64,000 bases of DNA from NCBI GenBank assembly GCA_028717645.1, contig JAQUNK010000001.1, forward strand, positions 4,184 to 68,183. The letters run 5' to 3'. A program made the translations under genes and the position numbers. This DNA comes from Candidatus Omnitrophota bacterium. Its GTDB lineage: Bacteria; Omnitrophota; Gorgyraeia; Gygaellales; JAMWDD01. The notes under the pieces are model-generated. The model searched no databases. It worked only from the letters and a program-made list of their open reading frames with translations, and had not been told where the DNA came from. How positions within the stretch are numbered: position 1 is the stretch's first letter; every line of letters starts with the position of its first letter. Shown here in pieces: positions 2,319 through 64,000 of the stretch.

Positions 2319-2319
2319 T

Positions 2320-12375: not shown

Positions 12376-12480
12376 TTCATCAGGTATAATAATGCAAGAT
12401 AAATAGAATAGTTGATCAGGGCATTTTTTGCGTATGTTTTTGTTTACCAGTGAGTTTGGTTTATACAATAAGAGGAAAAA

Positions 12481-12711: not shown

Positions 12712-12722
12712 TGGAGGATTCT

Positions 12723-13977: not shown

Positions 13978-13988
13978 GGAGGTTCGGG

Positions 13989-14144: not shown

Positions 14145-14163
14145 GAGAGGTAACGGAGGAACG

Positions 14164-15114: not shown

Positions 15115-15116
15115 AA

Positions 15117-16690: not shown

Positions 16691-16706
16691 GCATTCAGTA
16701 CGCAGC

Positions 16707-17619: not shown

Positions 17620-18002
17620 AGTTCTTTAAATACTGGCTGCCGGTACTTATCTGGTGCACGCTGATTTTCTTTCTTTCCGGAACCCCCAATTTAAGTACGG
17701 GCTTGGGGGCCTGGGACGCGATCTTAAGGAAAGCCGCCCATATCATTGAGTATTTAATTTTAACTTTTCTTTTCTACCGTGCTTTTAAAGGAAGTTTTTC
17801 CCTGGTTCCATTTTATTCGCTAATATGGCCGTTTATTTTTTCTCTGCTTTATGCCTGCTCCGATGAAATTCACCAAAGGTTCGTCCCGACCAGGAACGGC
17901 AATATTATGGATATCTTTATTGATTTATTAGGTATAATTTCTTTCTTCATTTTGCTCAAATACAAAAAATCCCTATCTGATATGGCCTCGGAAAAACATT
18001 GA
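17616..18002 (+). CDS. VanZ-like family membrane protein
   Basis: 4 TM helices with the conserved DEIHQRFVPTRNGNIMDIFIDLLG motif. Confidence 0.75.
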   Translation: MKFFKYWLPVLIWCTLIFFLSGTPNLSTGLGAWDAILRKAAHIIEYLILTFLFYRAFKGSFSLVPFYSLIWPFIFSLLYACSDEIHQRFVPTRNGNIMDIFIDLLGIISFFILLKYKKSLSDMASEKH

Positions 18003-47084: not shown

Positions 47085-47087
47085 TAG

Positions 47088-48269: not shown

Positions 48270-48297
48270 TAAATAATATAACTACAATTAAGGTGAT

Positions 48298-50554: not shown

Positions 50555-50562
50555 AAGCACCT

Positions 50563-52173: not shown

Positions 52174-52175
52174 AT

Positions 52176-52799
52176 ATGAGCCTTTCTGCGAGATTTTATA
52201 ATTTTATTCGTTCGAGGACCTGTCCTTTTTCTAAGATCGCCGAGTTTGTCCCTGACGGGGGTACTATAGTTGATCTTGGGTGCGGCACAGGTATTTTTAT
52301 CCAGTATTTGAGAACGAATTCTCCACGGCGCTTATTGTACGGATTTGATTGGAACAAGGGAAAAATTGAATTTGCCAGAAACCACTTATCCAGGTTGGAG
52401 GGAATTAAATTCGCAGAAGCAGATATAAGTAGCGATTCTTTCGTCATGCCTGTTGCCGATTGCATAATGCTGATAGATTCATTGTATTATTTAAATGATG
52501 CATTTAAGAAAAAGATATTGAAAAAATGCTTTGATTCTTTAGGGCATGGCGGAACGCTCCTGGTCAAGGATATCAATAAAGATTTCAGCCTAAAATTCAT
52601 ATGGACATTCTTCCAGGACTTTATTTCCTCCAGGGTTTTTAGATTCAATCGTATTGATGGGTTTTATTTCAAATCCAGAATAGAATATCTTAAACTTTTA
52701 AACGAATGCGGATTCAGGGCCGAAGACTTCGATATCAGCAAGGGGTATTTTTATAGCCATATTTTATATGTGGCCAAGAAAAATGTTAAACCGGGTTAA
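52176..52799 (+). CDS. Class I SAM-dependent methyltransferase
   Basis: Motif I is IVDLGCGTGIF. There is a motif-II-like acidic residue after MLIDSLYY. Confidence 0.75.
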   Translation: MSLSARFYNFIRSRTCPFSKIAEFVPDGGTIVDLGCGTGIFIQYLRTNSPRRLLYGFDWNKGKIEFARNHLSRLEGIKFAEADISSDSFVMPVADCIMLIDSLYYLNDAFKKKILKKCFDSLGHGGTLLVKDINKDFSLKFIWTFFQDFISSRVFRFNRIDGFYFKSRIEYLKLLNECGFRAEDFDISKGYFYSHILYVAKKNVKPG

Positions 52800-52806
52800 T
52801 CCATTT

Positions 52807-54357
52807 ATGCAGAAATTAATAAATAAAAAATCAATTTTTTTCATATCGATAATATTATTGGCTTGTTTTGCTAACTGTTTTAACAGTTCTTTCAAATTCG
52901 ATATTCAATTTTCATATAAGCCGGATTCAGCGGGCTTTTACTTTATTCAGGGGTTGCTCGATAAAAGCTTATTCAATAATGATTTGTTCGCCCTGGCAAT
53001 GAGAAAACAGGCTGAAGTTCTTGGTTTTTGTTTTTTAGCATGGAAATTATATGTTATCCTCATGCATTTTTTCTCTTTAGTCATTGCGCTTAAAATAGTA
53101 TCCATAGCTTTCTGCGTTATTTGCGCCGCTATAATATATAAAATCGGCACTCATTTGTATGCACAAAATGAAGCTTTCTTGCTTTCCGGGCTATTCTCGG
53201 TATATTTCCTATCCTCGGATATCTTTATTGGCGGGCAGTTGCGCGCTTTCGGCGCCTCGATGCTTATTGTTTTCTTATATTTCTTCGTGAAAGAAAAGTA
53301 CATATATCTGCCGCTGATTTCTTTATTGACTTTTTTTGTTTATCCGCCCATCGTTCCCATGCTAATGATCCAATGTTTTATAGTTTTGTTTTTTCTAGAC
53401 AATAAGAAGCCCCGCATAATGAGATCATATGTATTTATTTTAGCGGTCGCCTGCCTAAGCATCGGTTTATCTGCTTATTTCGGACCAGCCGGAGAATTCA
53501 TAAAAGTCATTTTCAAAAGTTTACCGGTCTTTAGCCAGTATAAATACACGCAAGGCGTAAATTATCCTCTCAACCCGTATAACCCATTATCATCCATATG
53601 GTACTTCATATTTAATATTAACGAATATACTGCGCAGTATAAATATTTCACAGTGGCATTTATCATCTTGTCGTTATTTTTTATTGCTGCCAGAAGAAGG
53701 AGGGCGTTATTGCTTCCCAGGCAGATATGGATCATGCTTCTTGCTTCAGGCTTAAGTTTTTTATTGCTCTATCCGTTTCATCCGACTTTTGCTTCCAGGC
53801 AATTCGTATTCAGCATACCCTTATTGCTGGTTTTTTTAAATTCAACCAACCTTTCAAACGTTAACAAGATTAAAGATAAACCTTTTGTTTTTCTTCTGCC
53901 ATTGGCATTAGTATTTATTTTAATTAATCCCCGGTACAACGCTACTATTAGCGTCCGTAAATATAGCCCGGTCTATGATTATATAGAAAAGCTGCCCAAA
54001 GGAGTTATGATCGCCGGCGATCCGGGAAGCGTATTGCTGCAATCCGTGCCTCTTTTTTCGAAAAGAACCATATTTTATGCCGATGAGATGCACGATATTT
54101 CATTGCTGGCTTATTCCGGGCAGGAACTTGTTGAAAGAAAGAATGAATTAATGAAAGCGCTTTATGCCGGCTCAAAAGAAGCATTGAACAGTTTCATCGG
54201 CAAATATAAAATAGACTATTTTCTTATAGAGGCTTCTCGCTACAGCGGCAGGCCCAACCGTCAGTTTTTATTTGACCTGGCAAAGAAAAATTATGAATTT
54301 AAAATTGAAATAGATGGCCAGGAGATCATTGTTCTGAATACAAGGGAAATAAAATAA
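52807..54357 (+). CDS. Polytopic membrane protein, paralog of 50563..52173 (hypothetical)
   Basis: Similar TM architecture, with the C-terminal GKYKIDYFLIEASRY motif. The start was chosen at the ATG after the methyltransferase stop. Confidence 0.45.
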   Translation: MQKLINKKSIFFISIILLACFANCFNSSFKFDIQFSYKPDSAGFYFIQGLLDKSLFNNDLFALAMRKQAEVLGFCFLAWKLYVILMHFFSLVIALKIVSIAFCVICAAIIYKIGTHLYAQNEAFLLSGLFSVYFLSSDIFIGGQLRAFGASMLIVFLYFFVKEKYIYLPLISLLTFFVYPPIVPMLMIQCFIVLFFLDNKKPRIMRSYVFILAVACLSIGLSAYFGPAGEFIKVIFKSLPVFSQYKYTQGVNYPLNPYNPLSSIWYFIFNINEYTAQYKYFTVAFIILSLFFIAARRRRALLLPRQIWIMLLASGLSFLLLYPFHPTFASRQFVFSIPLLLVFLNSTNLSNVNKIKDKPFVFLLPLALVFILINPRYNATISVRKYSPVYDYIEKLPKGVMIAGDPGSVLLQSVPLFSKRTIFYADEMHDISLLAYSGQELVERKNELMKALYAGSKEALNSFIGKYKIDYFLIEASRYSGRPNRQFLFDLAKKNYEFKIEIDGQEIIVLNTREIK

Positions 54358-54381
54358 GCAGGTCATTTAAAACAGTTAAAG

Positions 54382-55914
54382 ATGCAAAATAGAATAAAGA
54401 AATTTAAGGTTTGTTTTGTCCATCCCGGGTATGAAAACTTAGGCATTGAGTATCTTTCTGCTTGCCTTAAGGCAGGAGGTTTCGATACGAAGTTATTTTT
54501 AGACCCGATCCTCTTTGCGGAAAGCGGATTTCTGAACAGCAGGTTTTTATCCGGTATTTTCTCGTTCAGAAAAGAACTTCTTAGAAGGATCGTGGATTAT
54601 CGGCCCGACCTTATTTGTTTTTCGGTGTTGACAGATAATTATAAGTGGGCTTGTGATTTTAGCAGGGAGATCAAGTCGAATATCTCTGTACCGATCGTAT
54701 TCGGAGGGATACACCCTACTTCCGTGCCGGAGAGGGTAATAAAGAACCCTTTTGTTGACTTTTTATGCCTGGGAGAAGGAGAAGAGGCTTTGGTAGAACT
54801 GGCAGAAAACTTAGCGGAAGGCAATACTCCCACAGGCATAAAAAATATTTGGGCAAAAAGCGATGGCCGGGTTTTTAAAAATGACTTGCGTCCGATTACT
54901 CCAGACCTCGATCATTTCCCTTTTCCCGATAAAGATTTGTTCTACGGCGAAGCGCCTATATTCAATAGCGGCTACCTTATTTCTACTTCCAGGGGCTGTC
55001 TCTTCCGCTGCAGTTATTGTTGCAATAACGTATGGAAGAGCATTTATGCAGAAGAAAAAACGGTTTTTAGAAGAAGAAGCAGTGAAAGCGTGATAAATGA
55101 ATTAGAAACAGCAAAATCAAAATATAAGCCCAAGTTCATATTTTTTACAGACGAAGTATTTAATACCGACAATAAATGGTTAGAGCAATTTTTATATCAG
55201 TACAAAAAAAGGATAAATCTGCCTTTTTTTTGTTATATATATCCAGACCTGGTTACGGCTGATTCGGCCAAGAGCCTTAAAGAGGCGGGTTGTTATAAGG
55301 TACAAATGGGAGTTCAGGTCATCGATGAGAATAAGCGCAGGGCCATATTAAAAAGAGATTCATCCAATGAAGCCATTGCGGACAGCATAGGCCTGTTTAA
55401 GGGCGCAGGGATCTATGTTTCCTGCGATAATATTTTAGGCCTTCCTAACGAAGGGGTGAAGGACCTGGAGGATATTTCTTATTTTTATGACAGGCATCTA
55501 CCCGATCATATCGAGGTATTCTGGTTAAGATATTATCCCAAGGCAGAGATCGTTTCCTGGGCTACCGAGAATAATTACATCGACCATAATAAAATTGAAG
55601 AAATAGAAGAAGGGCGTTTATCTTGCGGGATTGTCCGTGGAGGCGATCATAACAGTAAAATTGCCAGAAAGTTCTCGTTATTGTTCTGCTTCTTTCATGC
55701 ATTGCCTGCTAAGTGGAGAAGGTATATTTTAAACAAGCGGCTCTATAGATTTTTACCTTCCTTTTTCTCTCCGGTAAGTTTATATATCATGGAAAGAGTT
55801 TTTAACCATTCAAAATACGATTTAAATATTTCCAGGACGATAAGCAGGTATGCTTATTTTGTCCGGCTTTTCTTTACTCCAAGAATGAGGTATGCAAGAA
55901 ATGGTAGAAAATAG
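54382..55914 (+). CDS. Class-B (B12-binding domain) radical SAM protein
   Basis: IVFGGIHPTSVPERV ... LGEGEE, with cluster motif TSRGCLFRCSYCC. Confidence 0.8.
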   Translation: MQNRIKKFKVCFVHPGYENLGIEYLSACLKAGGFDTKLFLDPILFAESGFLNSRFLSGIFSFRKELLRRIVDYRPDLICFSVLTDNYKWACDFSREIKSNISVPIVFGGIHPTSVPERVIKNPFVDFLCLGEGEEALVELAENLAEGNTPTGIKNIWAKSDGRVFKNDLRPITPDLDHFPFPDKDLFYGEAPIFNSGYLISTSRGCLFRCSYCCNNVWKSIYAEEKTVFRRRSSESVINELETAKSKYKPKFIFFTDEVFNTDNKWLEQFLYQYKKRINLPFFCYIYPDLVTADSAKSLKEAGCYKVQMGVQVIDENKRRAILKRDSSNEAIADSIGLFKGAGIYVSCDNILGLPNEGVKDLEDISYFYDRHLPDHIEVFWLRYYPKAEIVSWATENNYIDHNKIEEIEEGRLSCGIVRGGDHNSKIARKFSLLFCFFHALPAKWRRYILNKRLYRFLPSFFSPVSLYIMERVFNHSKYDLNISRTISRYAYFVRLFFTPRMRYARNGRK

Positions 55915-57325
55915 AACCAGGGTCCTGATTATCCGGCCGGTGGACAATGTTGTTTTTAAGACAAACCATATTCGCGATATCAGGGTCCCATTCCTTCTAA
56001 AGTATATAGAAGCCATTTTACTTAAAGAGGAAAAGTTTGATGTGCATCTCTTGGACTGCATGGTCAAACGCATGGATATTCAAGGCCTATTGGCCTTTTC
56101 CAAGGATTACCTGCCGAATGTGATCATCCTTTGCCCTTCAACAACTGAATACCGAATTTCGCTTGAATATGCAAAGATAATCAAAAATAGCACCAATGCC
56201 GTTATAATTGCGATAGGCCAGGATGCTACGGCAAGCCCCCAGCGCTATATTTATGAAGATTCGCCGATCGATTTTGTGCTGAGAGGGGAAAGTGAGCTAT
56301 CTGCGATAAAGCTACTGGAACGTATAGCGGCAAATAGTACGGACTTTACCGGCATTGAAGGTATTTATATGCGCGGATACATTCATCCGGACATCGCGTA
56401 TGTAAAGGATCACCATGCTTTGCCATTCCCTGTTTATAAGGATAGCGAATTTAACAAATATACAATTTACTATCCTTTACCCGTGGTTAAAAAAATAATA
56501 TGGGGGCACGTTCTTTCAAGCAGGGGCTGTCCTTATAATTGTATATTTTGTTCACAGACCATCAGGGAAAGTTATGGCAAAGAGCTTAGGGCGAGGGATC
56601 CTAAAGACGTAGTTGATGAGATAGAATATCTGCGGGAAAAAGGGGCCAATATGATTTCTTTCGCAGACGATAATTTTACGACCTCCAAAGAACATGTTAT
56701 CAATATCTGTAAGGAGATAAAAAGAAGGGGTTTGAAAATCATCTGGTCTGCGCATGCAAGGATAGATAATTGCGATGAATATTTATTGAATACTATGAAA
56801 GACGCGGGATGTATCCTTTTAAGATTCGGGGTAGAGTCGGGTTCGGAAAAAGTGATCAAGGCCTTAAAAAAGACAGATATACATAATTGGATAGATAAGG
56901 CCGAAACCGTATTTGGTGCGGCACGTAAAATTAATTTATCCACAGTAGCGCTTTTTCTCATAGGCAGCCCGCTGGAAGAAGAGAAAGACGTAAGGGAAAG
57001 CATTGCCTTCGCAAAAAAAATCAATCCGGATTTATTACAGATCTGTTTTTTTACTCCTTATCCGGGCTCGAAGGCTTATGAGATGTTCAAAGAAGAGATT
57101 AATTTTTCTCATATACAAGATATGTATCACTACCGGATAGCCCCTTTGAACTTCAGCAATATCCCTACGGACAGGCTCGCAGGTCTATACAGAGATTTTT
57201 ATCGCCAGTTTTATTTAAGAAAGAGTTATGTTGTCCGCCACTTTTTAAACTACTCGATGTTTTACGCACTCAATAACAGCGTTTTCTTAAAATTATTCAA
57301 TATGACAAAGTTGCTGCGTAATTGA
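55892..57325 (+). CDS. Class-B (B12-binding domain) radical SAM protein
   Basis: N-terminal B12-binding-like domain. The cluster motif is SSRGCPYNCIFC. Confidence 0.8.
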   Translation: MQEMVENRTRVLIIRPVDNVVFKTNHIRDIRVPFLLKYIEAILLKEEKFDVHLLDCMVKRMDIQGLLAFSKDYLPNVIILCPSTTEYRISLEYAKIIKNSTNAVIIAIGQDATASPQRYIYEDSPIDFVLRGESELSAIKLLERIAANSTDFTGIEGIYMRGYIHPDIAYVKDHHALPFPVYKDSEFNKYTIYYPLPVVKKIIWGHVLSSRGCPYNCIFCSQTIRESYGKELRARDPKDVVDEIEYLREKGANMISFADDNFTTSKEHVINICKEIKRRGLKIIWSAHARIDNCDEYLLNTMKDAGCILLRFGVESGSEKVIKALKKTDIHNWIDKAETVFGAARKINLSTVALFLIGSPLEEEKDVRESIAFAKKINPDLLQICFFTPYPGSKAYEMFKEEINFSHIQDMYHYRIAPLNFSNIPTDRLAGLYRDFYRQFYLRKSYVVRHFLNYSMFYALNNSVFLKLFNMTKLLRN

Positions 57326-58566
57326 TGAATATGAGAATTATACCGCGAAAAACAGTTAATGTATCTTTGGAGGAATTCAGGGCCGCAGTAAACGCATTGG
57401 CCAAAAATCAATGCGTAACCGGTCCGCAAATAGAGTTATTCGAGAAGCAATTTGCCGGTTATATAAATGCCAAGTATGCCATAGCTGTTTCTTCAGCGCG
57501 ATTGGGGATCTGGGCGATATTTAAAGCCCTGGGTTATTCCGCAGGAGATGAGGTCATAGTTTCTTCATTTAATTTTTCAGTTATCCCGGATCTGTTGAGA
57601 TCCATGGGGCTTAATCCCGTATTCGTTGACATAGACCCGGATACTTACAATATAAATGTAGCGGGCATAGAGAAAAAAATCAGCCCAAAGACAAAGTACA
57701 TATTGATAACCCATATGTACGGCCAGCCTTGCGATCTGGCCCCTATTCTTGATATTGCAAAAAAATACAACCTGAAAGTAATCGAAGACTGCGCTCATGC
57801 GTGTGGTTCGGAATACAAGAGCAAGAAAGTCGGTTCTTTCGGGGATGCGGCCTGTTTCAGTTTCGGCATAGGCAAGGCCATGGTTACTTTTGGCGGAGGT
57901 ATGGTTACCGTCAATAGCCAGGAATTATATAATAGTATAAAAGATATAGTTGCAGGTTCCAGGATGTTGTCCGGAAGCGAAGCGGTTAAGAAAATATTTT
58001 TGGGCTTCATTCTGGCGTATTCGACTAAAAAATTCGCTACGTACTTACTTTATCCTTTGAATTTGATCACTGATATGTTAGGCCATGACCTTGAAGAACT
58101 CCTGGATAAAGCCTTTTTACACGAAGAAGATTTCTCAAACTATAAAGTAAAGTTTACGAATATTCAGGCATCGATAGGCATTGAGCAATTAAAGAAGATC
58201 GAGCGCTTAAACAGCATAAGAATAACGAATTCCGAGAATCTTACAAAGGGTTTATCCGTTTTTGGCGGCATAAAAGTCTTTAAAGTGCTGGATGAAGTTA
58301 AGCATACTTACTTATATTATCCGCTAAGAGTACCTGCTCCTAAAAAGTTAAAAAGGTTTTTGTTGAGAAAAGGTATCGATATAAAAATAAGCAGCCAGAA
58401 GAATTGTTCTTGCCTAGACCCTGGCCGCGAGCCTAAAGATGAATATGTATATGCAGATTCTGTCAGCAATAAGGTCATAGAATTACCGAATTCCTATAAT
58501 TTGAATAAGAAAGATATAGATTATATCATCAGGGCGATAGGCGATTTTTCCGTAAAAGAAAATTAG
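57322..58566 (+). CDS. DegT/DnrJ/EryC1/StrS-family PLP-dependent sugar aminotransferase
   Basis: FEKQFAGYINAKYAIAVSSARLG ... GDEVIVSSFNF, with the PLP-lysine region CFSFGIGKAM. Confidence 0.8.
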   Translation: MMNMRIIPRKTVNVSLEEFRAAVNALAKNQCVTGPQIELFEKQFAGYINAKYAIAVSSARLGIWAIFKALGYSAGDEVIVSSFNFSVIPDLLRSMGLNPVFVDIDPDTYNINVAGIEKKISPKTKYILITHMYGQPCDLAPILDIAKKYNLKVIEDCAHACGSEYKSKKVGSFGDAACFSFGIGKAMVTFGGGMVTVNSQELYNSIKDIVAGSRMLSGSEAVKKIFLGFILAYSTKKFATYLLYPLNLITDMLGHDLEELLDKAFLHEEDFSNYKVKFTNIQASIGIEQLKKIERLNSIRITNSENLTKGLSVFGGIKVFKVLDEVKHTYLYYPLRVPAPKKLKRFLLRKGIDIKISSQKNCSCLDPGREPKDEYVYADSVSNKVIELPNSYNLNKKDIDYIIRAIGDFSVKEN

Positions 58567-58591
58567 GCCCAGGCATAGCCGCCAGGTAAAT

Positions 58592-59980
58592 ATGAAAAAA
58601 ATACTGCTATTGAACCCTCCGGGGGAAAATTATTTCATAAGGGATTATTACTGCAGCCAGGTATCTAAGGGTGATTACTATTGGCCGCCCCTGGATCTAT
58701 TGGTTTTGAGCGGTTTATTCAGGGATAAATTTGAAGTGTGTGTCCTGGATGCGTTGGCGCAGAGGATAGATAAGGCCGGTGCATACAGTTTTATAAATAA
58801 AATAAACCCGGATTTTATAATTTGTTTGGCTGGTGCGGCATCCTGGGAGCAGGATATAGGGTTCCTTGGGGAATTGAAGAAAATAAACAGGGCCGCGGTT
58901 ATTTTGTCCGGAGATTATCCTTTGGCCTACCCGAAAGAAATAATCGAAAAGTATCCTTTTGTAGACGCTATCTTATTGGATTTTACTGACAGCGAAATAG
59001 AGCTTTTTATCCGCGGCGTGCGCAATGATTCATTGAAAAATATCTTTACCAGGTCTGATACGGCAGACCCAGAGCTTGTCAGCCGGGATAATTTTTCCAT
59101 TGCTGTCCCGCAGCACAGTCTTTTTACATCAAGGCTATATAACTTACCGCATATCTACTACCATCCTTTTGCTACTATAATGACCGACTTTGGTTGCCCT
59201 TATCACTGCACCTTTTGTTCATATGAGCGGATCAAGTATAAGATGCGCGATATGGGAAATATCGCTGAAGAAGTAGATTACATAATATCTTTGGGGATAA
59301 GGGAACTATGGCTCAGGGACCAGAGCTTTGGTTCTGCAAAAGACCACGCCTTTGATTTTTGCAGCCTATTAGAAAATAAGGGCAGAAAGTTCTCCTGGAG
59401 CTGCGAAATGCGCGTTGATGCCGTTAGCGAAGAACTTTTAAATAAGATGGCTGCATGCGGATGCCATACGATCATGTTAGGAGTAGAAACTGCCAGCCAA
59501 AAAGTATTAGATATGCATAAAAAAGGTATTACCCTGGAACAAACCAAAGCAGCTTTTAAAATCGCCAAAAAGGCCAAGGTCAGGACGCTGGCCCATTTCA
59601 TATTCGGCTTAAACGGAGAGAATTTATTGTCGCAGGAAAAACTTATAGATTTTTGTTTGTCTCTTGAGCCGGACTTTGCTTCTTTTAATGTAGCTAATCC
59701 TTTGTGGAACACGACATTCCGCGAAGAAGCTACGAGAAATAAATGGTTGCTGGGAGAGGGCGTAAGCGTAGACGCATCCTGTTCTTTTCCCGTCTGGGAA
59801 AATGATATATTAAAACGTTCCGATATCTGGTCCATGAGAAAGGCGGCCCTGCAAAGGTTTTATTTCAGGCCAGCTTATGTCTGGAGGCAGATGCGGGATG
59901 TAAAGACAGGGTATCAGCTGCGTACATTAATAAAAGAAGGCGCACACTTAACCAGGGATCTGATTTTTAAAAAACAATAA
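58592..59980 (+). CDS. Class-B (B12-binding domain) radical SAM protein
   Basis: N-terminal B12-binding-like domain. The cluster motif is MTDFGCPYHCTFC. Confidence 0.8.
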   Translation: MKKILLLNPPGENYFIRDYYCSQVSKGDYYWPPLDLLVLSGLFRDKFEVCVLDALAQRIDKAGAYSFINKINPDFIICLAGAASWEQDIGFLGELKKINRAAVILSGDYPLAYPKEIIEKYPFVDAILLDFTDSEIELFIRGVRNDSLKNIFTRSDTADPELVSRDNFSIAVPQHSLFTSRLYNLPHIYYHPFATIMTDFGCPYHCTFCSYERIKYKMRDMGNIAEEVDYIISLGIRELWLRDQSFGSAKDHAFDFCSLLENKGRKFSWSCEMRVDAVSEELLNKMAACGCHTIMLGVETASQKVLDMHKKGITLEQTKAAFKIAKKAKVRTLAHFIFGLNGENLLSQEKLIDFCLSLEPDFASFNVANPLWNTTFREEATRNKWLLGEGVSVDASCSFPVWENDILKRSDIWSMRKAALQRFYFRPAYVWRQMRDVKTGYQLRTLIKEGAHLTRDLIFKKQ

Positions 59981-59992
59981 TTCTATTTTTCG

Positions 59993-61330
59993 ATGAATAT
60001 ATTATTAATTAACCCCCAGTTTAAAAAGACCGAAAAAGCTTATCCTTTAGGGCTGGGGTACCTTTCTTCGGTGCTGAAAGAAAAAGGGCATACCGTCCGG
60101 GGGCTGGACCTTTCAATGGCCACTATCGAAGAAGCCGTTGGCCTTGTAAATAAAAATAATATAGGATTAGCCGGCATGTCCGTTATTTCTTCTAATTCAG
60201 GGCAGGTAATAAAGTTGATCGAGTATTTTAAGAGCAGATGCCCTATCCCGATAGTTGTGGGCGGCCCCCATGCAACTATAACCAGGGACGCATTTATGAA
60301 ATTAGCACCTTCAGACTTTCTCGTAGAAGGAGAAGGAGAATCAACTATTTTAGAATTGGCAGAAGCGATCGAAGCCGGTAAGGACGTAGCTGGTATCCGC
60401 GGGCTGGTTTGGAGAAAGGGAAGAGAAATCGTCACCAATGAAAATAGGCAGGAAGTCGAGAACCTTGATTCTTTGCCTTTCCCCGATAGAAAGGCCTTTC
60501 CTTTATTGGATTATAAGGGCATGGTTACCAGAGAAAGAAATTATACCCAGATAATTACAAGCAGGGGATGTCCGCATAGCTGCCTTTATTGTCCGGAATC
60601 GAGTTTATGGAAGTGCTGGAGAAGGCGTTCTCCTAGGAATGTAGTGGATGAGATGGAGCTTATTTTCAAAGAATATAATATTAGAGAATTTCATATCGAA
60701 GATGCGAATTTTTTCGGTAGAGATCCAGGCAGGATAAGGGCTATATGCAAAGAGATATTAGATAGAAATTTAAAAATATCATGGCAATGTACCAATGGCA
60801 TACCGCTTTTAGAATTGCAAGATAATATAGATATGTTAGATATCATGGCAGAAGCAGGCTGTTACAGCATATCTTTAGGCGTAGAATCATTCGATGAAAA
60901 AATACGTAATTCCATGAAGAGGCGGGGCGACCTCAAGGCGATCCCGGAGATCGTTAAGCAGTGCAAGAAAAATAGGATAGAGATCAATTGTTATCTTATT
61001 ATCGGGTTCCCGCAGCAGACGTTGAGCCAAGTTAAGAGGGATATTTTAATTTCACACGGTTTTAATTTTGATTTTACCCATTTTTCCATATTTCAGAATA
61101 TCGCCGGATCAAAAATAGAATATTTACGTAAAACGGACAATCTTAAAAATGGAGATACCGGTATTAACCGTTTTTTCATTAAAATAATACAAAGATTGGC
61201 ATATATTTCCCTGTGTTTAAATCCGGCGGTCATTATTTTTATTTTTAGGCGGTTATCGCATACGAAAAGGCCGGGGATTATTTTTAACAAAGCCTGTAGC
61301 TATATTTTCGGGGACCATCTCGCAAATTGA
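59993..61330 (+). CDS. Class-B (B12-binding domain) radical SAM protein
   Basis: IVVGGPHATITRDAF ... EGEGE, with cluster motif TSRGCPHSCLYC. Confidence 0.8.
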   Translation: MNILLINPQFKKTEKAYPLGLGYLSSVLKEKGHTVRGLDLSMATIEEAVGLVNKNNIGLAGMSVISSNSGQVIKLIEYFKSRCPIPIVVGGPHATITRDAFMKLAPSDFLVEGEGESTILELAEAIEAGKDVAGIRGLVWRKGREIVTNENRQEVENLDSLPFPDRKAFPLLDYKGMVTRERNYTQIITSRGCPHSCLYCPESSLWKCWRRRSPRNVVDEMELIFKEYNIREFHIEDANFFGRDPGRIRAICKEILDRNLKISWQCTNGIPLLELQDNIDMLDIMAEAGCYSISLGVESFDEKIRNSMKRRGDLKAIPEIVKQCKKNRIEINCYLIIGFPQQTLSQVKRDILISHGFNFDFTHFSIFQNIAGSKIEYLRKTDNLKNGDTGINRFFIKIIQRLAYISLCLNPAVIIFIFRRLSHTKRPGIIFNKACSYIFGDHLAN

Positions 61331-61351
61331 CGACAGTGCCTTAAGGGCCAT

Positions 61352-62530
61352 ATGAAGATCAAAATGAGAAGATTGCTAAGTAAGTTATCAAAGATAGTTG
61401 TTTTTATCTTTTTATTCAAATTCGTCTTAAGGATCATTCCCGCTTTTTCAGACCAGGCGCTCGAACCCAAGAAGGCTGGTCCGAACCTCATTGTAGTTAA
61501 GAACCCGCATTTTTTGCCAGAATCGGATCAGGCCAAGATCGTTTCTTCCAGTGTCTCTATAGTAAAGGGATTCGATCTGTATGCCATGACTAAACAGGCC
61601 ATAGATCTAATAGGGGGTATGAAAAAAATAGTCAAGCCGGGTAACAAGGTATTCATTAAACCTAATTATATAACCGGCGGGCTCGATGGCCACGACCCGG
61701 TTATCGCCGGCGAAATATCCCATCCAGAAGTCGTTGCTTCTGTGGCTGAAGAATGTATCAAGGCAGGGGCCAAAGAAGTAATAATCGGAGAATGGGTGGA
61801 ACGCCCTCCTAAGATAAATTTTGCCGGAAAGCGGAACAGGGAGGGGGCCCAGGTCAAGGGATTGGTAGACCGGTTAAATAAAAAATATGGGCACAAGGTT
61901 TATTTAATAAATCTTATGGATCATACCACTTATTTTAGATACGTTCCTTCCAGGACAAAATTAAAATTTTTGGCAATTCCTAATATAGTCGCCGAAGCAG
62001 ATGTGATTATTTCTATCCCCTCCCTGAAGACGCACCATAAGCCTTCGCCGGTAAGTTTAGGTATGAAAAATTTCATGGGCATAATGCCGTCCCTATTCTA
62101 CGGTGAGCCGCGATATAAACTCCATGAGGCAGGTGTGCACCAGGTGATCGTAGATATAAATAGAGCCCTGAAGCCGGACCTGGTTGTGGTGAGCGGTGCT
62201 TTCGGAATGGAAGGCAAGGGCGCTTCTTTATTTCTGGGAGGTAAGGCAGTGGATGTCAGCCAGCGCATAGGGGCATTTTTAGTCATTGCCGGGACTGACC
62301 CTGTAGCTACGGATGCTACGGCTACGCGCCTGATCACAAAAAACTGGGAACCGGTCCCGGATAATTTTAATTTGGGCACTCCCTGGTATGTCCATCATCT
62401 TCGGATGGCCTGTGAACAGGGCTTGGGACTTATTGATAAATCAAGAATAAATATAATGGGCGAGAAGCTGGAAGATCTACAGATGAATTGGGAAACCTCC
62501 AATGATGGCGTATATCCAGAGATACCTTAA
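61352..62530 (+). CDS. DUF362 domain protein with an N-terminal membrane anchor
   Basis: VFIKPNYITGG ... HPEVVASVAEECIKAGAKEVIIGE fits the DUF362 core. No ferredoxin-type Cys cluster is present. Confidence 0.6.
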   Translation: MKIKMRRLLSKLSKIVVFIFLFKFVLRIIPAFSDQALEPKKAGPNLIVVKNPHFLPESDQAKIVSSSVSIVKGFDLYAMTKQAIDLIGGMKKIVKPGNKVFIKPNYITGGLDGHDPVIAGEISHPEVVASVAEECIKAGAKEVIIGEWVERPPKINFAGKRNREGAQVKGLVDRLNKKYGHKVYLINLMDHTTYFRYVPSRTKLKFLAIPNIVAEADVIISIPSLKTHHKPSPVSLGMKNFMGIMPSLFYGEPRYKLHEAGVHQVIVDINRALKPDLVVVSGAFGMEGKGASLFLGGKAVDVSQRIGAFLVIAGTDPVATDATATRLITKNWEPVPDNFNLGTPWYVHHLRMACEQGLGLIDKSRINIMGEKLEDLQMNWETSNDGVYPEIP

Positions 62531-63437
62531 GGTATCAATAAGTGTTTTTTTATTTTCGATATTAATAAATAATAGCCAGGCGCTTTCATATGGCTTGATC
62601 GCCGATGCTTTGGCAGCTAAAGGGCAGTGGGTAAAGGGCGTTGTCGCCGATAGAAAAGCGGTTATAGCCAGGGAAAGCGGGGCAATATCAGAAATAGAAA
62701 TCCAGGTTCCCCGGCAGGGGCGCTACAATCTTCTTGTCTATGTCTATCATAATTGGAAGAAATTTTCACCCTGCATCTATGTAGAAGCAGTGGATTCTGA
62801 AGGTAAAAAGCATTTTGGTTCGCATAGGATCGAAAACTGCTGGTATCTAAAGGAGCCGGGCCAGGGCCGCTGGTTTATGGTTAGCTTAAGCGATAACCCG
62901 TGGTGGGTGCTGCCGAAAGGGAATTTGACTATCAGGTTCTGGGCCAAGGGCTGTGCCCTGGATGCCGGCAAGGGGACAGAAGTCCCTATGGAAGGGGATA
63001 TAGCAATAGAACGATTCTTTCTTGTTCCAGTGGTGGATGAGCTTGCCGTGAGCATAATTAATCCTGAATCAACATCCGGCGGCTGGGGATTCTCATATTA
63101 CGACAAAAATTACCAGACAGGATATATATTCACGGATAAGAAAAATTCATTGAATTCATATGCTATCAAAGTTCCTTTTTCCGGGTATTATCAGGTTTAT
63201 TTGTCACTTCTTTCTCTTGATCCGTCAGCCCTGGATATAGGGATAAGCAACGGCCGCATTGCCAAAAATGCCAGGGTCGTTGTAAAGCCTGAAAAAGAAT
63301 GGGGCCTGGTGGTTACGGAGCCTTTATTTTTAAATAAGGGAGAGTATACCCTGTCACTTAAAAATGTTGAAGCGAAACGTGTACTTTTAGATTATTTGTT
63401 ATTATTGCCGTTTATTGAAAAGAACTCGATAAAATGA
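62502..63437 (+). CDS. Secreted hypothetical protein built from two beta-rich repeats (possible carbohydrate-binding modules)
   Basis: Signal peptide followed by two roughly 140-aa halves with a similar alternating hydrophobic pattern (YNLLVYVYHNW ... NLTIRFWAKG and YYQVYLSLLSL ... EYTLSLKNVE). Confidence 0.4.
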   Translation: MMAYIQRYLKVSISVFLFSILINNSQALSYGLIADALAAKGQWVKGVVADRKAVIARESGAISEIEIQVPRQGRYNLLVYVYHNWKKFSPCIYVEAVDSEGKKHFGSHRIENCWYLKEPGQGRWFMVSLSDNPWWVLPKGNLTIRFWAKGCALDAGKGTEVPMEGDIAIERFFLVPVVDELAVSIINPESTSGGWGFSYYDKNYQTGYIFTDKKNSLNSYAIKVPFSGYYQVYLSLLSLDPSALDIGISNGRIAKNARVVVKPEKEWGLVVTEPLFLNKGEYTLSLKNVEAKRVLLDYLLLLPFIEKNSIK

Positions 63438-63476
63438 TGAAAGTTTTCCATAAAAATTTGGTCTATTTAAGAAAAA

Positions 63477-64000
63477 TGTTATTTCTTCTTTATATTTTTG
63501 CCTCCAGGGGTAGATTTATCGCAATTAGCATAAATCTGCTATATTTTGCCTTCCATAAGGCCCGGCCGCCGTTTATGCCATCGTTCATACAAATAGAGCC
63601 GACCAATATCTGCAATCTTTCGTGTTCTTTGTGCCCATGCGGCAACGGCCAGCTTACAAGGCCTAAGGGCAACATGCCGTTCCATACTTTTAAAAGTTTT
63701 CTGGATAAAAATCACGGCAACTTAGCCTTCATAGTATTTTACAATATGGGCGAACCCTTTCTTAACGAAGAGATCTTTAAGATGATCAATTATGCTGTTT
63801 CAAAAAAAATATTTGTTAAGATAAGTACAAACGGCCTGTTTAAAGACAAAGATACCGTTAAAAAAATTGTTGATTCAGGATTGGATGAGTTACTGATAAG
63901 CCTAGATTTTATAGACCGGGAAAGCTATAAATTATTCAAGGGAAAAGACAATTTCGATGAGGTTAAGTCTAATGTCTCCATGTTGTTAAAAGAGAGAGGC
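63477..64000 (+). CDS. Radical SAM protein, 5' portion. The gene continues past the window end.
   Basis: Open frame to the window edge with cluster motif EPTNICNLSCSLC (C-x3-C-x2-C) and YNMGEPFL (GGEP-like). Missing from the ORF track because no stop is reached. Confidence 0.7.

What the first reader, a model, noticed from the sequence alone, without database searches (positions are those of the whole stretch)
54382..61330. Four class-B radical SAM genes bracketing a DegT-family sugar aminotransferase
A run of B12-radical SAM genes (54382, 55892, then 58592, 59993) flanks a DegT/DnrJ/EryC1-type aminotransferase, with only short or overlapping intergenic gaps. This looks like one transcription unit. 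In secondary-metabolite sugar pathways, DegT-type aminotransferases work on NDP-4-keto-sugars next to radical SAM enzymes. Examples are DesI/DesII, and the GenK/GenD1 C-methylases of aminosugars. The arrangement suggests biosynthesis of a C-methylated or otherwise radical-modified aminosugar that is then incorporated into the polymer.
Basis: inference. Interest (0 to 1): 0.55.

Follow-up and report, generated by a model that had tools for sequence, protein, structure and literature searches.

The report
Radical-SAM/aminotransferase sugar-tailoring block in glycan locus
Four radical-SAM enzyme genes really do flank a sugar-type aminotransferase gene inside a very large cell-surface polysaccharide locus of an uncultivated Omnitrophota bacterium, and this enzyme pairing recurs in other anaerobes, which points to an uncharacterised, oxygen-independent way of making unusual amino sugars.

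Summary
ORFs at 54382, 55892/55901, 57322/57325, 58592 and 59993 encode rSAM, rSAM, DegT, rSAM and rSAM, and their junctions either overlap or are at most 25 nt apart. Three rSAMs have an above-threshold B12-binding domain. The fourth (58592) scores only 17 bits and is closest in sequence and fold to AprD4, a cobalamin-free sugar diol-dehydratase.

The block is not a stand-alone operon. It lies in a co-directional array running from 44009 past the window end, within a >45-kb Wzm/Wzt glycan locus that holds 13 rSAM genes.

The DegT belongs to a distinct "long-form" subfamily with a ~55-aa insert and an invariant catalytic Lys. A class-B-type rSAM gene directly abuts this subfamily in 7 of 10 of its closest homologues' loci, against 5 of 51 for distant ones. 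The trio 55892-like–DegT–58592-like recurs in other Omnitrophota. The same families also co-occur in a Methanosarcinales MAG.

Best reading (confidence about 0.4): the adjacent rSAMs generate or remodel a keto-sugar on an already attached hexosamine, DegT aminates it, and the outer B12-type rSAMs possibly C-methylate. No family cut-off is met and no literature describes the module. I rate it a new variant of a known kind, interest about 0.6.

The parts
54382..55914 (+). Class-B-type radical SAM (510 aa) with a strong B12-binding domain. It is a paralogue of the gene at 42379-43884(-), at 40% identity.
   Evidence: Pfam B12-binding scores 64.5 bits and Radical_SAM 67.4 bits. CLFRCSYC lies at residue 206. 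No NCBIfam cut-off is met; the best hit is rSAM_ladder_B12 at 92.7 bits against a cut-off of 360. PDB hits are weak only (OxsB, E 3.5e-5). Orthologues at 55-61% identity occur in L089, L096 and L098; in L096 the orthologue lies directly upstream of DegT.
55901..57325 (+). HpnJ/AprD4-like radical SAM (474-477 aa) with a marginal B12-domain signature. Its stop codon overlaps the DegT start codon. It is the most widespread partner of the long-form DegT.
   Evidence: NCBIfam HpnJ scores 188 bits over residues 51-450, against a cut-off of 577.6. Pfam B12-binding scores 33.6 bits. PDB sequence search gives AprD4 6fd2 at E 1.3e-21 and QCMT 9ccb at E 1.7e-16. The AF2 model has pLDDT 95, and its best PDB fold match is AprD4 (TM 0.74/0.77), followed by QCMT at 0.66/0.74. 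It is adjacent to DegT homologues in L001, L089, L092, L093, L094, L098 and L025, and within 2-3 genes in L002, L090 and L091.
57325..58566 (+). Long-form DegT/DnrJ/EryC1 PLP aminotransferase (413 aa from the ATG at 57325; the ORF opens at TTG 57322). It has a ~55-aa insert (residues ~210-268) between the large and small domains.
   Evidence: Pfam PF01041 scores 269 bits in two stretches. K184, D155 and E154 are invariant, and K184 aligns with the PLP lysine of 7b0d. The insert is absent from canonical DegTs and from every PDB hit, where only 19-208 and 267-410 align. Subfamily motifs are SSAR.G, EDCAHACG and FGGG. No NCBIfam equivalog cut-off is met; PseC scores 170 bits against 423.5.
58592..59980 (+). 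AprD4-like radical SAM (462 aa). Its N-terminal Rossmann domain has only a sub-threshold B12-binding signal.
   Evidence: Pfam B12-binding scores 17.4 bits (E 0.004), below the 32.1 cut-off. PDB sequence search finds AprD4 6fd2 at E 1.5e-20 over residues 28-389. The AF2 model has pLDDT 95. Its best fold match is AprD4 at TM 0.80/0.82 (E 7e-28), ahead of TsrM at 0.64, QCMT at 0.63 and TokK at 0.62. NCBIfam gives HpnJ 125 bits and AprD4 106 bits (cut-off 500). It lies directly downstream of DegT in L001, L089, L090, L096 and L098. In the distant loci L086 and L087 it sits next to an SDR.
59993..61330 (+). Class-B-type radical SAM (445 aa) with a strong B12-binding domain. It is not conserved in the related loci.
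   Evidence: Pfam B12-binding scores 56.2 bits and Radical_SAM 75.2 bits. PDB sequence hits are TokK (E 3.9e-12), OxsB, TsrM and CysS. NCBIfam's best hit is BchE at 129 bits against a cut-off of 481. Only weak counterparts of 23-28% identity occur in L025 and L094, and none in L089, L096 or L098.
61352..62530 (+). DUF362 protein (392 aa), co-directional and 21 nt downstream of the last rSAM gene.
   Evidence: Pfam DUF362 scores 110 bits. NCBIfam Npun_F2552_fam scores 64 bits against a cut-off of 500. A second DUF362 fused to 4Fe-4S ferredoxin domains lies further downstream in the source contig (L082 10498-11571).
62502..63437 (+). Unknown 311-aa protein. It overlaps the DUF362 gene by 29 nt, and its stop overlaps the start of the next gene, a SPASM rSAM that runs off the window.
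   Evidence: No Pfam or NCBIfam family was found. The junction sequence was read, and the downstream genes are listed.
52768..54357 (+). Polytopic membrane protein (529 aa, about 10 TM segments) of an unannotated family, with a paralogue at 50563-52173. It ends 24 nt before the 54382 start.
   Evidence: No Pfam hit was found. The family also occurs in L088, L089, L090 (twice), L096 and the archaeal L025.
52176..52799 (+). Class I SAM-dependent methyltransferase (207 aa).
   Evidence: It hits Pfam Methyltransf_25, _23, _31 and related models.
44009..64000 (+). Co-directional gene array that contains the block. In order: HpnA-like SDR, two SPASM rSAMs, GNAT, B12-rSAM, polysaccharide deacetylase, membrane protein, methyltransferase, membrane protein, the five-gene block, DUF362, an unknown protein, then a SPASM rSAM running off the window.
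   Evidence: All junctions overlap or have gaps of at most 28 nt. No terminator-like site falls in a plus-strand intergenic gap. The array continues downstream with SPASM rSAM, PMT_2, GT2, HAD and DUF362-ferredoxin genes in the identical contigs L081 and L082.
18666..22189 (+). Wzm (ABC-2 permease) and a 912-aa Wzt-like ATPase. Together they mark the locus as an ABC-transporter-dependent glycan pathway.
   Evidence: Pfam ABC2_membrane scores 61 bits and ABC_tran 73 bits.

Best explanation
The block is the core of a sugar-tailoring section in a >45-kb cell-surface glycan locus of an uncultivated Omnitrophota bacterium. The locus is of the Wzm/Wzt export type.

The DegT gene encodes a PLP aminotransferase of a distinct long-form subfamily. 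In many anaerobes this subfamily sits directly against radical SAM genes that carry an N-terminal B12-type Rossmann domain.

I propose the following pathway. Every step is inferred; none is shown.
1. The substrate is a hexosamine that is already attached, to polyprenyl phosphate or to the growing glycan, rather than a free NDP-4-keto-6-deoxy sugar.
2. The rSAMs that touch DegT (58592, AprD4-like; 55892, HpnJ/AprD4-like) use the 5'-deoxyadenosyl radical to turn a carbinol carbon into a ketone. The simplest route is 1,2-diol dehydration as in AprD4, which needs neither NAD nor O2. They may also rearrange the ring in other ways.
3. DegT converts that ketone to an amine through its Lys184-PLP.
4. 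The outer rSAMs (54382 and 59993, both with strong B12-domain signatures) and the class I methyltransferase (52176) add further decorations, most simply C- and N/O-methyl groups.
5. Neighbouring GT-C-like membrane proteins transfer the finished residue to the polymer, and Wzm/Wzt export it.
For: Shown:
- Gene content and order are as described.
- DegT has the catalytic Lys and Asp, and all its PDB relatives are sugar or cyclitol aminotransferases.
- The 55892 stop overlaps the DegT start.
- The long-form DegT subfamily is separated from canonical ~365-aa DegTs by a score gap (at least 264 bits against at most 237) and by a ~55-aa insert.
- A class-B-type rSAM gene directly abuts DegT in 7 of 10 loci whose DegT scores at least 250 bits to the window protein (8 of 11 with L001). 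The figure is 7 of 21 at 190-250 bits and 5 of 51 below 190 bits.
- The trio 55892-like, DegT, 58592-like recurs in L001, L089 and L098. The 55892-like/DegT pair recurs in L092, L093 and L094. The archaeal L025 holds the same families.
- 58592 is closest to AprD4 by sequence (E 1.5e-20, near full length) and by fold (TM 0.80/0.82, clearly above the cobalamin enzymes).
- 55892's best family is HpnJ (188 bits) and its best fold is AprD4.

From the literature:
- AprD4 dehydrates the glucosamine ring of paromamine to a 4'-ketone and needs no cobalamin (PMC5461906, PMC12931638).
- HpnJ is proposed to ring-contract lipid-bound glucosamine after the glycosyltransferase HpnI and the deacetylase HpnK have acted (PMC13459092, PMC9204698).

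Context that fits an attached substrate:
- The 250-aa GT2 at 31928 hits dolichyl-phosphate hexose transferases best (AglJ 75 bits, DPhHxTase 66 bits).
- The cytoplasmic deacetylases at 49727 and 9479 belong to families whose members act on lipid-linked GlcNAc or related substrates (family role from my own knowledge).
- At least five large polytopic membrane proteins are present, two of them PMT_2/ArnT-like.
- L091 has the order DegT, GT2, YdjC, 55892-like rSAM, which mirrors HpnI/HpnK/HpnJ.
- In the distant loci L086 and L087 the 58592-like gene sits beside an SDR, as AprD4 sits with AprD3.
- No 4,6-dehydratase reaches a cut-off in the window.
Against: - No enzyme here reaches any curated family cut-off: AprD4 106 and 94 bits against 500; HpnJ 188 and 125 bits against 577.6.
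- 58592 has the canonical CX3CX2C motif, whereas AprD4 has CX3CX3C.
- About half of the 58592 homologues and most of the 55892 homologues carry a Pfam B12-binding hit. Cobalamin use, and hence methylation, cannot be excluded.
- The residues shared with AprD4 are also shared with the 55892 family, so they are not specific to dehydratases.
- Gene order is fluid among relatives. In L096 the gene upstream of DegT is 54382-like. In L088, L095, L096 and L097 the 55892-like gene sits beside an amine-oxidase/UGM-like flavoprotein instead of DegT.
- L089, L090, L094 and L095 were retrieved through rSAM queries, which biases adjacency counts. Taking only loci retrieved through DegT gives 7 of 10.
- The nature of the substrate (lipid-linked, polymer or NDP-sugar) is pure inference.
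- The hydrophobic insert in DegT was not modelled.
Confidence: 0.4

Rival explanations
1. DegT aminates an NDP-4-keto (or 3-keto) sugar made by a conventional dehydratase or oxidoreductase. The four flanking enzymes are cobalamin-dependent C-methyltransferases of the GenK/GenD1 type. Together they produce a C-methylated amino sugar that is then polymerised.
For: Three of the four rSAMs have above-threshold B12-binding domains. 59993's best PDB sequence hits are the methylases TokK, TsrM and CysS, together with OxsB. GenD2/GenS2/GenN/GenD1 is a documented precedent for aminotransferase, N-methyltransferase and class-B C-methylase acting on one sugar (PMC5461906), and a class I methyltransferase lies at 52176. 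Many 55892 and 58592 homologues score for PF02310. An SDR is present at 44009.
Against: The two DegT-adjacent rSAMs are closest to the non-methylases HpnJ and AprD4 in sequence and fold. 58592's B12 signal is sub-threshold at 17.4 bits. No 4,6-dehydratase, nucleotidyltransferase or methylase family cut-off is met: KedN5-type C-methyltransferase scores 22-71 bits against 700, and dTDP-glucose dehydratase scores 79 bits against 365 for 44009. Four separate C-methylations on one sugar would be unprecedented.
Confidence: 0.2
2. There is co-location without a shared substrate. The locus is a hypervariable surface-glycan island in which each rSAM tailors a different sugar residue, possibly paired with its own membrane transferase. 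DegT makes an ordinary amino sugar independently.
For: The locus holds 13 rSAM genes among 35, so rSAM neighbours are likely a priori. Gene order is shuffled among close relatives. rSAM-plus-membrane-protein pairs recur within the locus. GC content drops from about 0.44 to about 0.37 at 18 kb, as is typical of exchangeable glycan islands.
Against: Adjacency between DegT and a class-B-type rSAM persists in distant lineages with otherwise different neighbourhoods (L092, L093, L094, Acidobacteria L005-L020, the archaeal L025), and it scales with DegT similarity. The 55892 stop and DegT start overlap. The within-locus chance of four class-B neighbours is 0.0027.
Confidence: 0.15
3. This is an HpnJ-type ring contraction. 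The 55892 and/or 58592 enzymes convert a lipid- or glycan-bound glucosamine into a five-membered carbocyclic aminocyclitol, as proposed for BHT cyclitol ether or calditol. DegT adds or repositions an amino group.
For: HpnJ is the top NCBIfam family for both 55892 (188 bits, full length) and 58592 (125 bits). L091 has GT2, YdjC and a 55892-like rSAM beside DegT, mirroring HpnI/HpnK/HpnJ. The SDR at 44009 is best matched by the hopanoid-associated HpnA (166 bits). Deacetylases are present. The pathway is described in PMC13459092 and PMC9204698.
Against: The scores are far below the HpnJ cut-off of 577.6. No squalene-hopene cyclase or HpnH context was seen in the ORFs scanned. HpnJ chemistry itself has never been reconstituted (PMC13459092). 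The hopanoid pathway does not use a DegT.
Confidence: 0.1
4. The genes make a non-glycan product, such as a RiPP, a ladderane-like lipid or an aminolipid, and they only sit next to glycan genes.
For: Several NCBIfam hits are to RiPP C-methyltransferases (ApyD, rSAM_ocin_1) and to the ladderane B12-rSAM, which is the top hit for 54382 at 92.7 bits. SPASM rSAMs are common RiPP maturases.
Against: All such hits are far below their cut-offs. The whole co-directional array is filled with glycosyltransferases, deacetylases, GT-C-like proteins and a Wzm/Wzt exporter, and the same mix recurs in every related locus. All structural relatives of the DegT act on sugars or cyclitols. I did not systematically search for a precursor-peptide gene.
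Confidence: 0.05

Closest known systems
AprD4/AprD3 (apramycin C3'-deoxygenation: a radical SAM 1,2-diol dehydratase plus an NADPH reductase)
   Same: 58592 aligns with AprD4 over nearly its full length (E 1.5e-20), and AprD4 is its best structural match (TM 0.80/0.82). 55892 also has AprD4 as its best fold match. AprD4 acts on a glucosamine ring that is already glycosidically attached, and it yields a ketone. In the distant loci L086 and L087 the 58592-like gene sits beside an SDR, like AprD4 with AprD3.
   Different: Identity is only about 20%. The NCBIfam AprD4 model scores 106 and 94 bits against a cut-off of 500. The motif is CX3CX2C, not AprD4's CX3CX3C. The partner here is an aminotransferase, not a reductase. 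The context is a surface-glycan locus of an anaerobe, not an actinomycete antibiotic cluster.
HpnI/HpnK/HpnJ (hopanoid BHT-glucosamine to cyclitol ether)
   Same: HpnJ is the best-scoring curated family for both 55892 and 58592. The logic of glycosyltransferase, then deacetylase, then B12-type rSAM acting on a lipid-bound hexosamine is mirrored in L091 (DegT, GT2, YdjC, rSAM). In the window it is mirrored by GT2, deacetylase and HpnA-like SDR genes.
   Different: The scores are about one third of the family cut-off or less. No hopanoid core genes were seen. The hopanoid pathway has no DegT aminotransferase. The HpnJ reaction is only inferred from a knockout (PMC13459092).
GenD2/GenS2/GenN/GenD1 and GenK (gentamicin garosamine/purpurosamine tailoring)
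   Same: A DegT-type aminotransferase, a SAM N-methyltransferase and class-B rSAM enzymes act on one sugar after it has been attached (PMC5461906). The window has DegT, the class I methyltransferase at 52176 and the B12-domain rSAMs 54382 and 59993.
   Different: There is no specific sequence relationship to GenK or GenD1, and only generic class-B similarity. No GenD2-type dehydrogenase is adjacent. Methyl transfer was not demonstrated.
DesI/DesII and BtrN/BtrS (radical SAM enzymes that feed or follow a DegT-family aminotransferase)
   Same: The principle is the same: a radical SAM enzyme creates or consumes the keto or amino group handled by a DegT-family enzyme on the same ring. This rests on my own knowledge; the DesII paper PMC11434129 was listed.
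   Different: DesII and BtrN are not B12-domain-type rSAMs. BtrN is a SPASM/twitch enzyme. Neither appears among the sequence or fold hits of the four proteins.
Arn pathway (ArnB/ArnC/ArnD/ArnT: an amino sugar built and carried on undecaprenyl phosphate, then transferred by a GT-C enzyme)
   Same: The same enzyme classes co-occur in the window and in related loci: a DegT aminotransferase (ArnB model 155 bits), a small GT2 of the polyprenyl-phosphate type, a polysaccharide-deacetylase-family enzyme and PMT_2/ArnT-like membrane transferases.
   Different: There is no ArnA-type dehydrogenase/decarboxylase. Radical SAM genes occupy that genomic position instead. No Arn equivalog cut-off is met.

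Membership tests
Radical SAM superfamily | Pfam PF04055 above the gathering score, and a CX3CX2C cluster motif | tested here: met
   All four score 63-78 bits against a cut-off of 29.5. The motifs are CLFRCSYC at 206, CPYNCIFC at 213, CPYHCTFC at 202 and CPHSCLYC at 193.
Class B (cobalamin-dependent) radical SAM | An N-terminal B12-binding domain (PF02310) above the gathering score of 32.1 bits | tested here: inconclusive
   54382 scores 64.5, 59993 scores 56.2 and 55892 scores 33.6 bits, so all three meet it. 58592 scores 17.4 bits and does not. The AF2 models of 55892 and 58592 both show an N-terminal alpha/beta domain.
Class B (cobalamin-dependent) radical SAM | Actual binding and use of cobalamin | not testable with these tools
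   No conserved sequence motif defines it. AprD4 has a related Rossmann domain but binds no cobalamin (PMC12931638).
AprD4 family radical SAM diol-dehydratase (NCBIfam NF033070) | Score at or above the curated cut-off of 500 bits | tested here: not met
   58592 scores 105.7, 55892 scores 94.1, 59993 scores 45.8 and 54382 scores 19 bits.
AprD4 family radical SAM diol-dehydratase | Overall fold and domain arrangement of AprD4 (PDB 6fd2) | tested here: met
   The 58592 model gives TM 0.80/0.82 (E 7e-28) as top hit. The 55892 model gives TM 0.74/0.77 as top hit.
AprD4 family radical SAM diol-dehydratase | The atypical CX3CX3C cluster motif of AprD4 | tested here: not met
   The alignment shows AprD4 CPYPCRFyCPY with one extra residue relative to 58592 CPYHCTFC.
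HpnJ (NCBIfam TIGR03471) | Score at or above the curated cut-off of 577.6 bits | tested here: not met
   55892 scores 188.2, 58592 scores 125.2, 59993 scores 114.9 and 54382 scores 87.4 bits.
HpnJ (hopanoid cyclitol-ether pathway) | Genomic context of hopanoid core genes (squalene-hopene cyclase, HpnH, HpnG) | tested here: not met
   None of the 51 ORFs of 150 aa or more in the window hits those families. The only related hits are an HpnA-like SDR (166 bits against 368) and weak HpnH/HpnB similarity.
DegT/DnrJ/EryC1/StrS aminotransferase family (PF01041) | Pfam score above the cut-off, a PLP Schiff-base lysine, and an Asp to the pyridine N | tested here: met
   The score is 269 bits against 19.8. 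K184, D155 and E154 are invariant in the subfamily alignment, and K184 aligns with the lysine of 7b0d, 7b0m and 3bn1.
Named sugar aminotransferase equivalogs (PseC, ArnB, LegC, WecE, DesI) and the RfbH dehydrase | Score at or above the curated NCBIfam cut-off | tested here: not met
   The best hit is PseC at 170 bits against 423.5. ArnB scores 155 against 631 and DesI 129 against 650. Only residues ~11-213 align.
3- versus 4-aminotransferase clade of DegT enzymes | Phylogenetic placement with characterised members | not tested
   Reference sequences could not be imported. PDB hits mix C4 enzymes (perosamine synthase), C3 enzymes (QdtB, WbpE) and cyclitol enzymes (BtrR) with similar scores.
GenK/GenD1-type cobalamin-dependent sugar C-methyltransferases | Specific sequence relationship or methyl-transfer activity | tested here: inconclusive
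   No dedicated model is available. The related KedN5 C-methyltransferase model scores 22-71 bits against 700. 59993 hits the TokK, CysS and TsrM structures at E 1e-9 to 1e-12. Activity is not testable here.
ABC-transporter-dependent (Wzm/Wzt) glycan assembly locus | ABC-2 permease and ABC ATPase together with an initiating phosphoglycosyl transferase and glycosyltransferases | tested here: met
   ABC2_membrane is at 18666 and ABC_tran at 19451. Glycos_transf_4 is at 5119 and Wzy_C at 7382(-). GT2 and GT4 genes are present.

The most novel reading that the evidence does not exclude
Anaerobic uncultivated bacteria and archaea (Omnitrophota, Acidobacteriota, Methanosarcinales and others) possess a modular, radical-SAM-based toolkit for diversifying surface glycans. 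In it, a conserved pair of a B12-domain-type rSAM and a long-form DegT forms a new route to amino(deoxy) sugars that needs neither NAD nor O2. The rSAM makes the ketone, by AprD4-like dehydration or another radical oxidation, on a polyprenyl-phosphate- or glycan-linked hexosamine. Dedicated GT-C-like membrane proteins then install each tailored residue.
Probability: 0.3. Interest if true: 0.75.

Novelty: new variant of a known kind. Interest (0 to 1): 0.6.

Why it matters
Radical SAM chemistry on sugars is known almost only from antibiotic pathways (AprD4, DesII, BtrN, GenK/GenD1) and from the unreconstituted HpnJ.

Here three uncharacterised rSAM families and a distinct DegT subfamily sit inside a primary cell-surface glycan locus, and the arrangement recurs across phyla of anaerobes. 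If the proposed chemistry is right, three things follow:
- It gives new enzymology: a second radical diol-dehydratase lineage, or the first tractable HpnJ relatives, coupled to transamination.
- It explains how strict anaerobes generate keto-sugar intermediates without NAD-dependent dehydratases.
- It predicts unusual deoxy-amino, and possibly C-methyl, sugars on the envelopes of Omnitrophota, a phylum with no cultured representatives and no known glycan chemistry.

The proteins are small and soluble, and their AF2 models are confident (pLDDT 95), so the hypothesis can be tested directly in vitro.

Tried and rejected
1. Metagenome-contig scan with 58592 gave only two distant loci, L086 and L087.
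2. phmmer of the 71-aa DegT insert alone against 1.84 billion representatives found only the protein itself. The size of the long-form subfamily could therefore not be measured this way.
3. The AFDB50 fold library was unavailable.
4. An iterated HMM of the 50563/52768 membrane family found no link to PMT_2/GT-C families, even at E 10. Pfam at E 1 also gave nothing. Their GT-C assignment therefore stays a guess.
5. NCBIfam: none of the 20 proteins scanned reaches a curated cut-off.
6. Promoter and terminator scans were uninformative. Promoter-like sites are fewer than in shuffles, and no terminator-like site falls in a plus-strand gap.
7. There are no tRNA, tmRNA or Rfam matches in the window.
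8. Six literature searches found no paper on class-B rSAM plus DegT in O-antigen, capsule or Omnitrophota glycan loci.
9. I considered a RiPP or ladderane-lipid reading and rejected it as the main one because of the consistent glycan context.
10. I considered using residues conserved between AprD4 and 58592 as evidence for dehydratase function. I rejected this because the same positions are conserved in the 55892 family.

Full report
**Observation.**
- Pfam finds Radical_SAM in all four flanking proteins.
- B12-binding scores 64.5 bits for 54382, 33.6 for 55892 and 56.2 for 59993. For 58592 it scores only 17.4 bits (E 0.004), below the 32.1 gathering score.
- The central protein scores 269 bits for DegT_DnrJ_EryC1.
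- All four rSAMs carry a canonical CX3CX2C motif near residue 200.
- The 54382 and 55901 genes overlap. The 55892 stop overlaps the DegT ATG (TGATG at 57323-57327). The following gaps are 25, 12 and 21 nt.
- Nine of the 35 genes in the 18-64 kb locus are of this B12-domain type. The chance that DegT's four nearest neighbours are all of this type is C(9,4)/C(34,4) = 0.0027.

The one caveat is that "class B" is not established for 58592.

**Surroundings.**
- The window comes from a Candidatus Omnitrophica/Omnitrophota MAG. Identical proteins carry that name, and identical contigs are GCA_028710905.1 and GCA_028713695.1.
- Positions ~4-11 kb and 18-64 kb form a surface-glycan locus. It contains a WecA-like Glycos_transf_4, GT4 and GT2 enzymes, a Wzy_C (O-antigen-ligase-like) protein, a PIG-L deacetylase and Wzm plus a 912-aa Wzt.
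- The same locus also contains three amine-oxidase/UGM-like flavoproteins, a polysaccharide deacetylase and a GNAT. In addition it has a class I methyltransferase, an HpnA-like SDR and at least five polytopic membrane proteins of 500-560 aa, two of them PMT_2/ArnT-like.
- The locus holds 13 radical SAM genes: 9 with the B12-type architecture and 4 SPASM.
- GC falls from about 0.44 to about 0.37 at 18 kb.
- The five-gene block is not an autonomous unit. From 44009 onward every gene is on the plus strand, with overlaps or gaps of at most 28 nt and no intergenic terminator-like site.
- In the identical contigs the array continues past the window with a SPASM rSAM, PMT_2, GT2, HAD and a DUF362-ferredoxin gene.

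**The rSAM proteins.**
- The nine B12-type rSAM paralogues in the window are only 21-40% identical to one another, so they are old, distinct families.
- None reaches any NCBIfam cut-off.
- 55892 is best matched by HpnJ (188 bits, full length). 58592 is best matched by HpnJ (125 bits) and AprD4 (106 bits).
- Against solved structures, 58592 aligns with AprD4 (6fd2) over residues 28-389 (E 1.5e-20). 55892 hits the AprD4 core and the methylase QCMT. 59993 hits TokK, OxsB, TsrM and CysS. 54382 has only weak hits.
- AF2 models built with family alignments are confident (pLDDT 95 for both).
- The 58592 model matches AprD4 best (TM 0.80/0.82), well above the cobalamin enzymes at 0.62-0.72.
- The 55892 model also matches AprD4 best (0.74/0.77), with QCMT and CysS close behind.
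- AprD4 is the radical SAM 1,2-diol dehydratase that converts the glucosamine ring of paromamine to a 4'-ketone. It works with the reductase AprD3 and binds no cobalamin (PMC5461906, PMC12931638).
- HpnJ is inferred from a knockout to ring-contract hopanoid-bound glucosamine after HpnI (glycosyltransferase) and HpnK (deacetylase) have acted. It has never been reconstituted (PMC13459092, PMC9204698).
- 58592 differs from AprD4 in having CX3CX2C rather than CX3CX3C.

**The aminotransferase.**
- The DegT has the Schiff-base lysine (K184), D155 and E154. All its PDB relatives are sugar or cyclitol aminotransferases.
- It belongs to a distinct long-form subfamily of 400-432 aa. About 40 cluster representatives score at least 264 bits. 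Scores then fall to 237 bits and below, and most of the remaining hits are canonical DegTs of about 365 aa.
- The subfamily has a ~55-residue, moderately hydrophobic insert (window residues ~210-268; conserved T234, Y243-P244, D255). The insert is absent from canonical DegTs and from every solved structure.
- Its altered motifs are SSAR.G, EDCAHACG and FGGG.
- No equivalog cut-off is met, and only the N-terminal half aligns to named families. The 3- versus 4-aminotransferase question stays open.

**Comparative genomics.** This is the main new result.
- The complete five-gene cassette occurs only in MAGs of the same organism.
- The trio 55892-like, DegT, 58592-like is conserved at 48-57% identity in L001, L089 and L098. 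L089 and L098 also carry the 54382-like gene, and L089 the 52768-like gene, nearby.
- In L096 the order is 52768-like, 54382-like, DegT, 58592-like, with the 55892-like gene a few genes away beside an amine-oxidase-like gene.
- More distant loci keep a 55892-like/DegT pair. These are L092, L093 (in an LPS-core-like setting with GT9, LpxA-like and PMT_2 genes) and L094.
- L091 has the order DegT, GT2, YdjC, 55892-like. L002, L026, L094 and L097 have a 39317-like rSAM abutting DegT.
- Several Acidobacteriota MAGs have a class-B rSAM directly upstream of DegT, and a Methanosarcinales MAG (L025) holds the 59993-, 58592- and 55892-like genes and DegT in a row.
- A class-B-type rSAM directly abuts the DegT homologue in 7 of 10 loci with a DegT of at least 250 bits (8 of 11 with L001). 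The figure is 7 of 21 at 190-250 bits and 5 of 51 below 190 bits.
- Some loci were retrieved through rSAM queries. Using only DegT-retrieved loci, the top class is still 7 of 10.
- Counter-examples exist. In L088, L095, L096 and L097 the 55892-like gene sits beside an amine-oxidase/UGM-like flavoprotein. In L086 and L087 the 58592-like gene sits beside an SDR, an arrangement that resembles AprD4/AprD3.

**Mechanism.** I commit to this at about 0.4. Every step is inferred.
1. DegT enzymes need a keto substrate. No NDP-sugar 4,6-dehydratase or nucleotidyltransferase reaches a cut-off in the window.
2. The genes welded to DegT are relatives of enzymes that perform radical chemistry on an already attached glucosamine.
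3. I therefore propose that 58592 (and/or 55892) produces a ketone by AprD4-like radical dehydration or an equivalent reaction. DegT then aminates it.
4. 54382, 59993 and the methyltransferase at 52176 add further decorations, most simply methyl groups.
5. Four things fit a polyprenyl-phosphate-linked or polymer-bound substrate:
   - the small GT2 at 31928, whose best hits are dolichyl-phosphate hexose transferases;
   - the cytoplasmic deacetylases;
   - the many GT-C-like membrane proteins;
   - the recurring GT2 / PMT_2 / LPG_synthase_TM neighbours in related loci.
6. If DegT is C4-specific, as its best partial matches (PseC, Per, ArnB) weakly hint, the prediction is a 4-amino-3,4-dideoxy-hexosamine-type residue. 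This last point is speculation.

**Rivals.**

| Rival | Confidence |
|---|---|
| Co-location without a shared substrate in a shuffling glycan island | 0.15 |
| HpnJ-type ring contraction to an aminocyclitol | 0.1 |
| A non-glycan product | 0.05 |

Cobalamin use by 55892 and 58592 cannot be excluded, because many of their homologues score for PF02310.

**Comparison with known systems and novelty.**
- The module works like the AprD4/AprD3, DesI/DesII, BtrN/BtrS and GenD2/GenS2/GenN/GenD1 systems, in which an rSAM and a DegT-type enzyme act on one sugar. Its context recalls the Arn and HpnI/J/K logic.
- It is a member of none of these. Every curated family cut-off tested was missed.
- Literature searches found no description of class-B rSAM plus DegT modules in surface-glycan loci or in Omnitrophota.
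- I rate it a new variant of a known kind. It is real and conserved but functionally unresolved, with interest about 0.6.

Noticed in passing
window 18050-64000 (rSAM genes at 22173, 24563, 25824, 34162-, 39317-, 42379-, 45013, 46056, 48298, 54382, 55892, 58592, 59993): Thirteen radical SAM genes (9 B12-domain type, 4 SPASM) lie among 35 genes of one Wzm/Wzt glycan locus, and at least one more SPASM rSAM lies just past the window end. The B12-type paralogues are only 21-40% identical to one another.
   Followed up: partly
window 19451-22189 (residues 691-824) and 22173-24548 (residues 41-169): The C-terminal extension of the 912-aa Wzt-like ATPase shares a ~130-aa domain with the N-terminus of the 791-aa rSAM encoded next to it (24% identity, E 2e-11). 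Wzt C-terminal domains usually recognise the glycan's terminal cap (my own knowledge), so this rSAM might be tied to chain termination.
   Followed up: no
window 42379-43884(-)/40758-42413(-); 39317-40726(-)/37575-39266(-); 34162-35280(-)/32696-34234(-); 52768-54357(+)/54382-55914(+): There are repeated pairs of one rSAM gene next to one 10-12-TM membrane protein of 510-560 aa. This suggests modules of a tailoring enzyme plus a dedicated transferase. A further SPASM-rSAM/PMT_2 pair lies downstream of the window.
   Followed up: no
window 50563-52173 and 52768-54357; L088 3146-4795; L089 128-1729; L090 1948-3552 and 10897-12636; L025 5245-6822(-); L096 2452-4005 and 11722-13284: An unannotated family of polytopic membrane proteins has no Pfam or NCBIfam hit, yet it recurs in the rSAM-rich glycan loci of Omnitrophota and of a Methanosarcinales MAG. 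An iterated HMM search found no link to PMT_2.
   Followed up: partly
window 6095-7387, 30573-31910, 36283-37617(-); L088 7234-8577; L095 7684-8994; L096 8912-10273; L097 1-604: The window has three paralogous amine-oxidase/UDP-galactopyranose-mutase-like flavoproteins. In four other loci a flavoprotein of this Amino_oxidase type (clearly 30573-like in L088 and L096) sits immediately beside the 55892-like rSAM instead of DegT. This hints at an alternative partner for that rSAM family.
   Followed up: partly
L091 9001-13293: An Omnitrophota contig has the order long-form DegT, 247-aa GT2, YdjC-family deacetylase, 55892-like rSAM. This is the same enzyme-class order as hopanoid HpnI/HpnK/HpnJ, with an aminotransferase added.
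   Followed up: partly
window 39317-40726(-); L002 8487-9998; L026 8469-9896; L094 6222-7730; L090 14727-16139: Orthologues (41-42% identity) of the window's 39317 rSAM directly abut DegT homologues in four other loci. In this window that gene lies 17 kb away on the opposite strand.
   Followed up: no
window 45013-48269; L096 161-2357: Tandem SPASM rSAM paralogues (36% identical) are followed by a 393-aa GNAT-like protein. The pair of 46056-like rSAM and 47088-like GNAT is conserved in L096 at 46% and 42% identity.
   Followed up: no
window 61352-62530; L082 10498-11571: A DUF362 protein closes the rSAM run, and a second DUF362 fused to 4Fe-4S ferredoxin domains lies further downstream in the source contig. 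Either could be an electron donor for the rSAMs, but DUF362 is not conserved next to the trio in related loci.
   Followed up: no
window 1-18000 versus 18001-64000: GC content drops from about 0.42-0.47 to about 0.34-0.41 at the start of the Wzm/Wzt locus. This is consistent with an exchangeable surface-glycan island.
   Followed up: no
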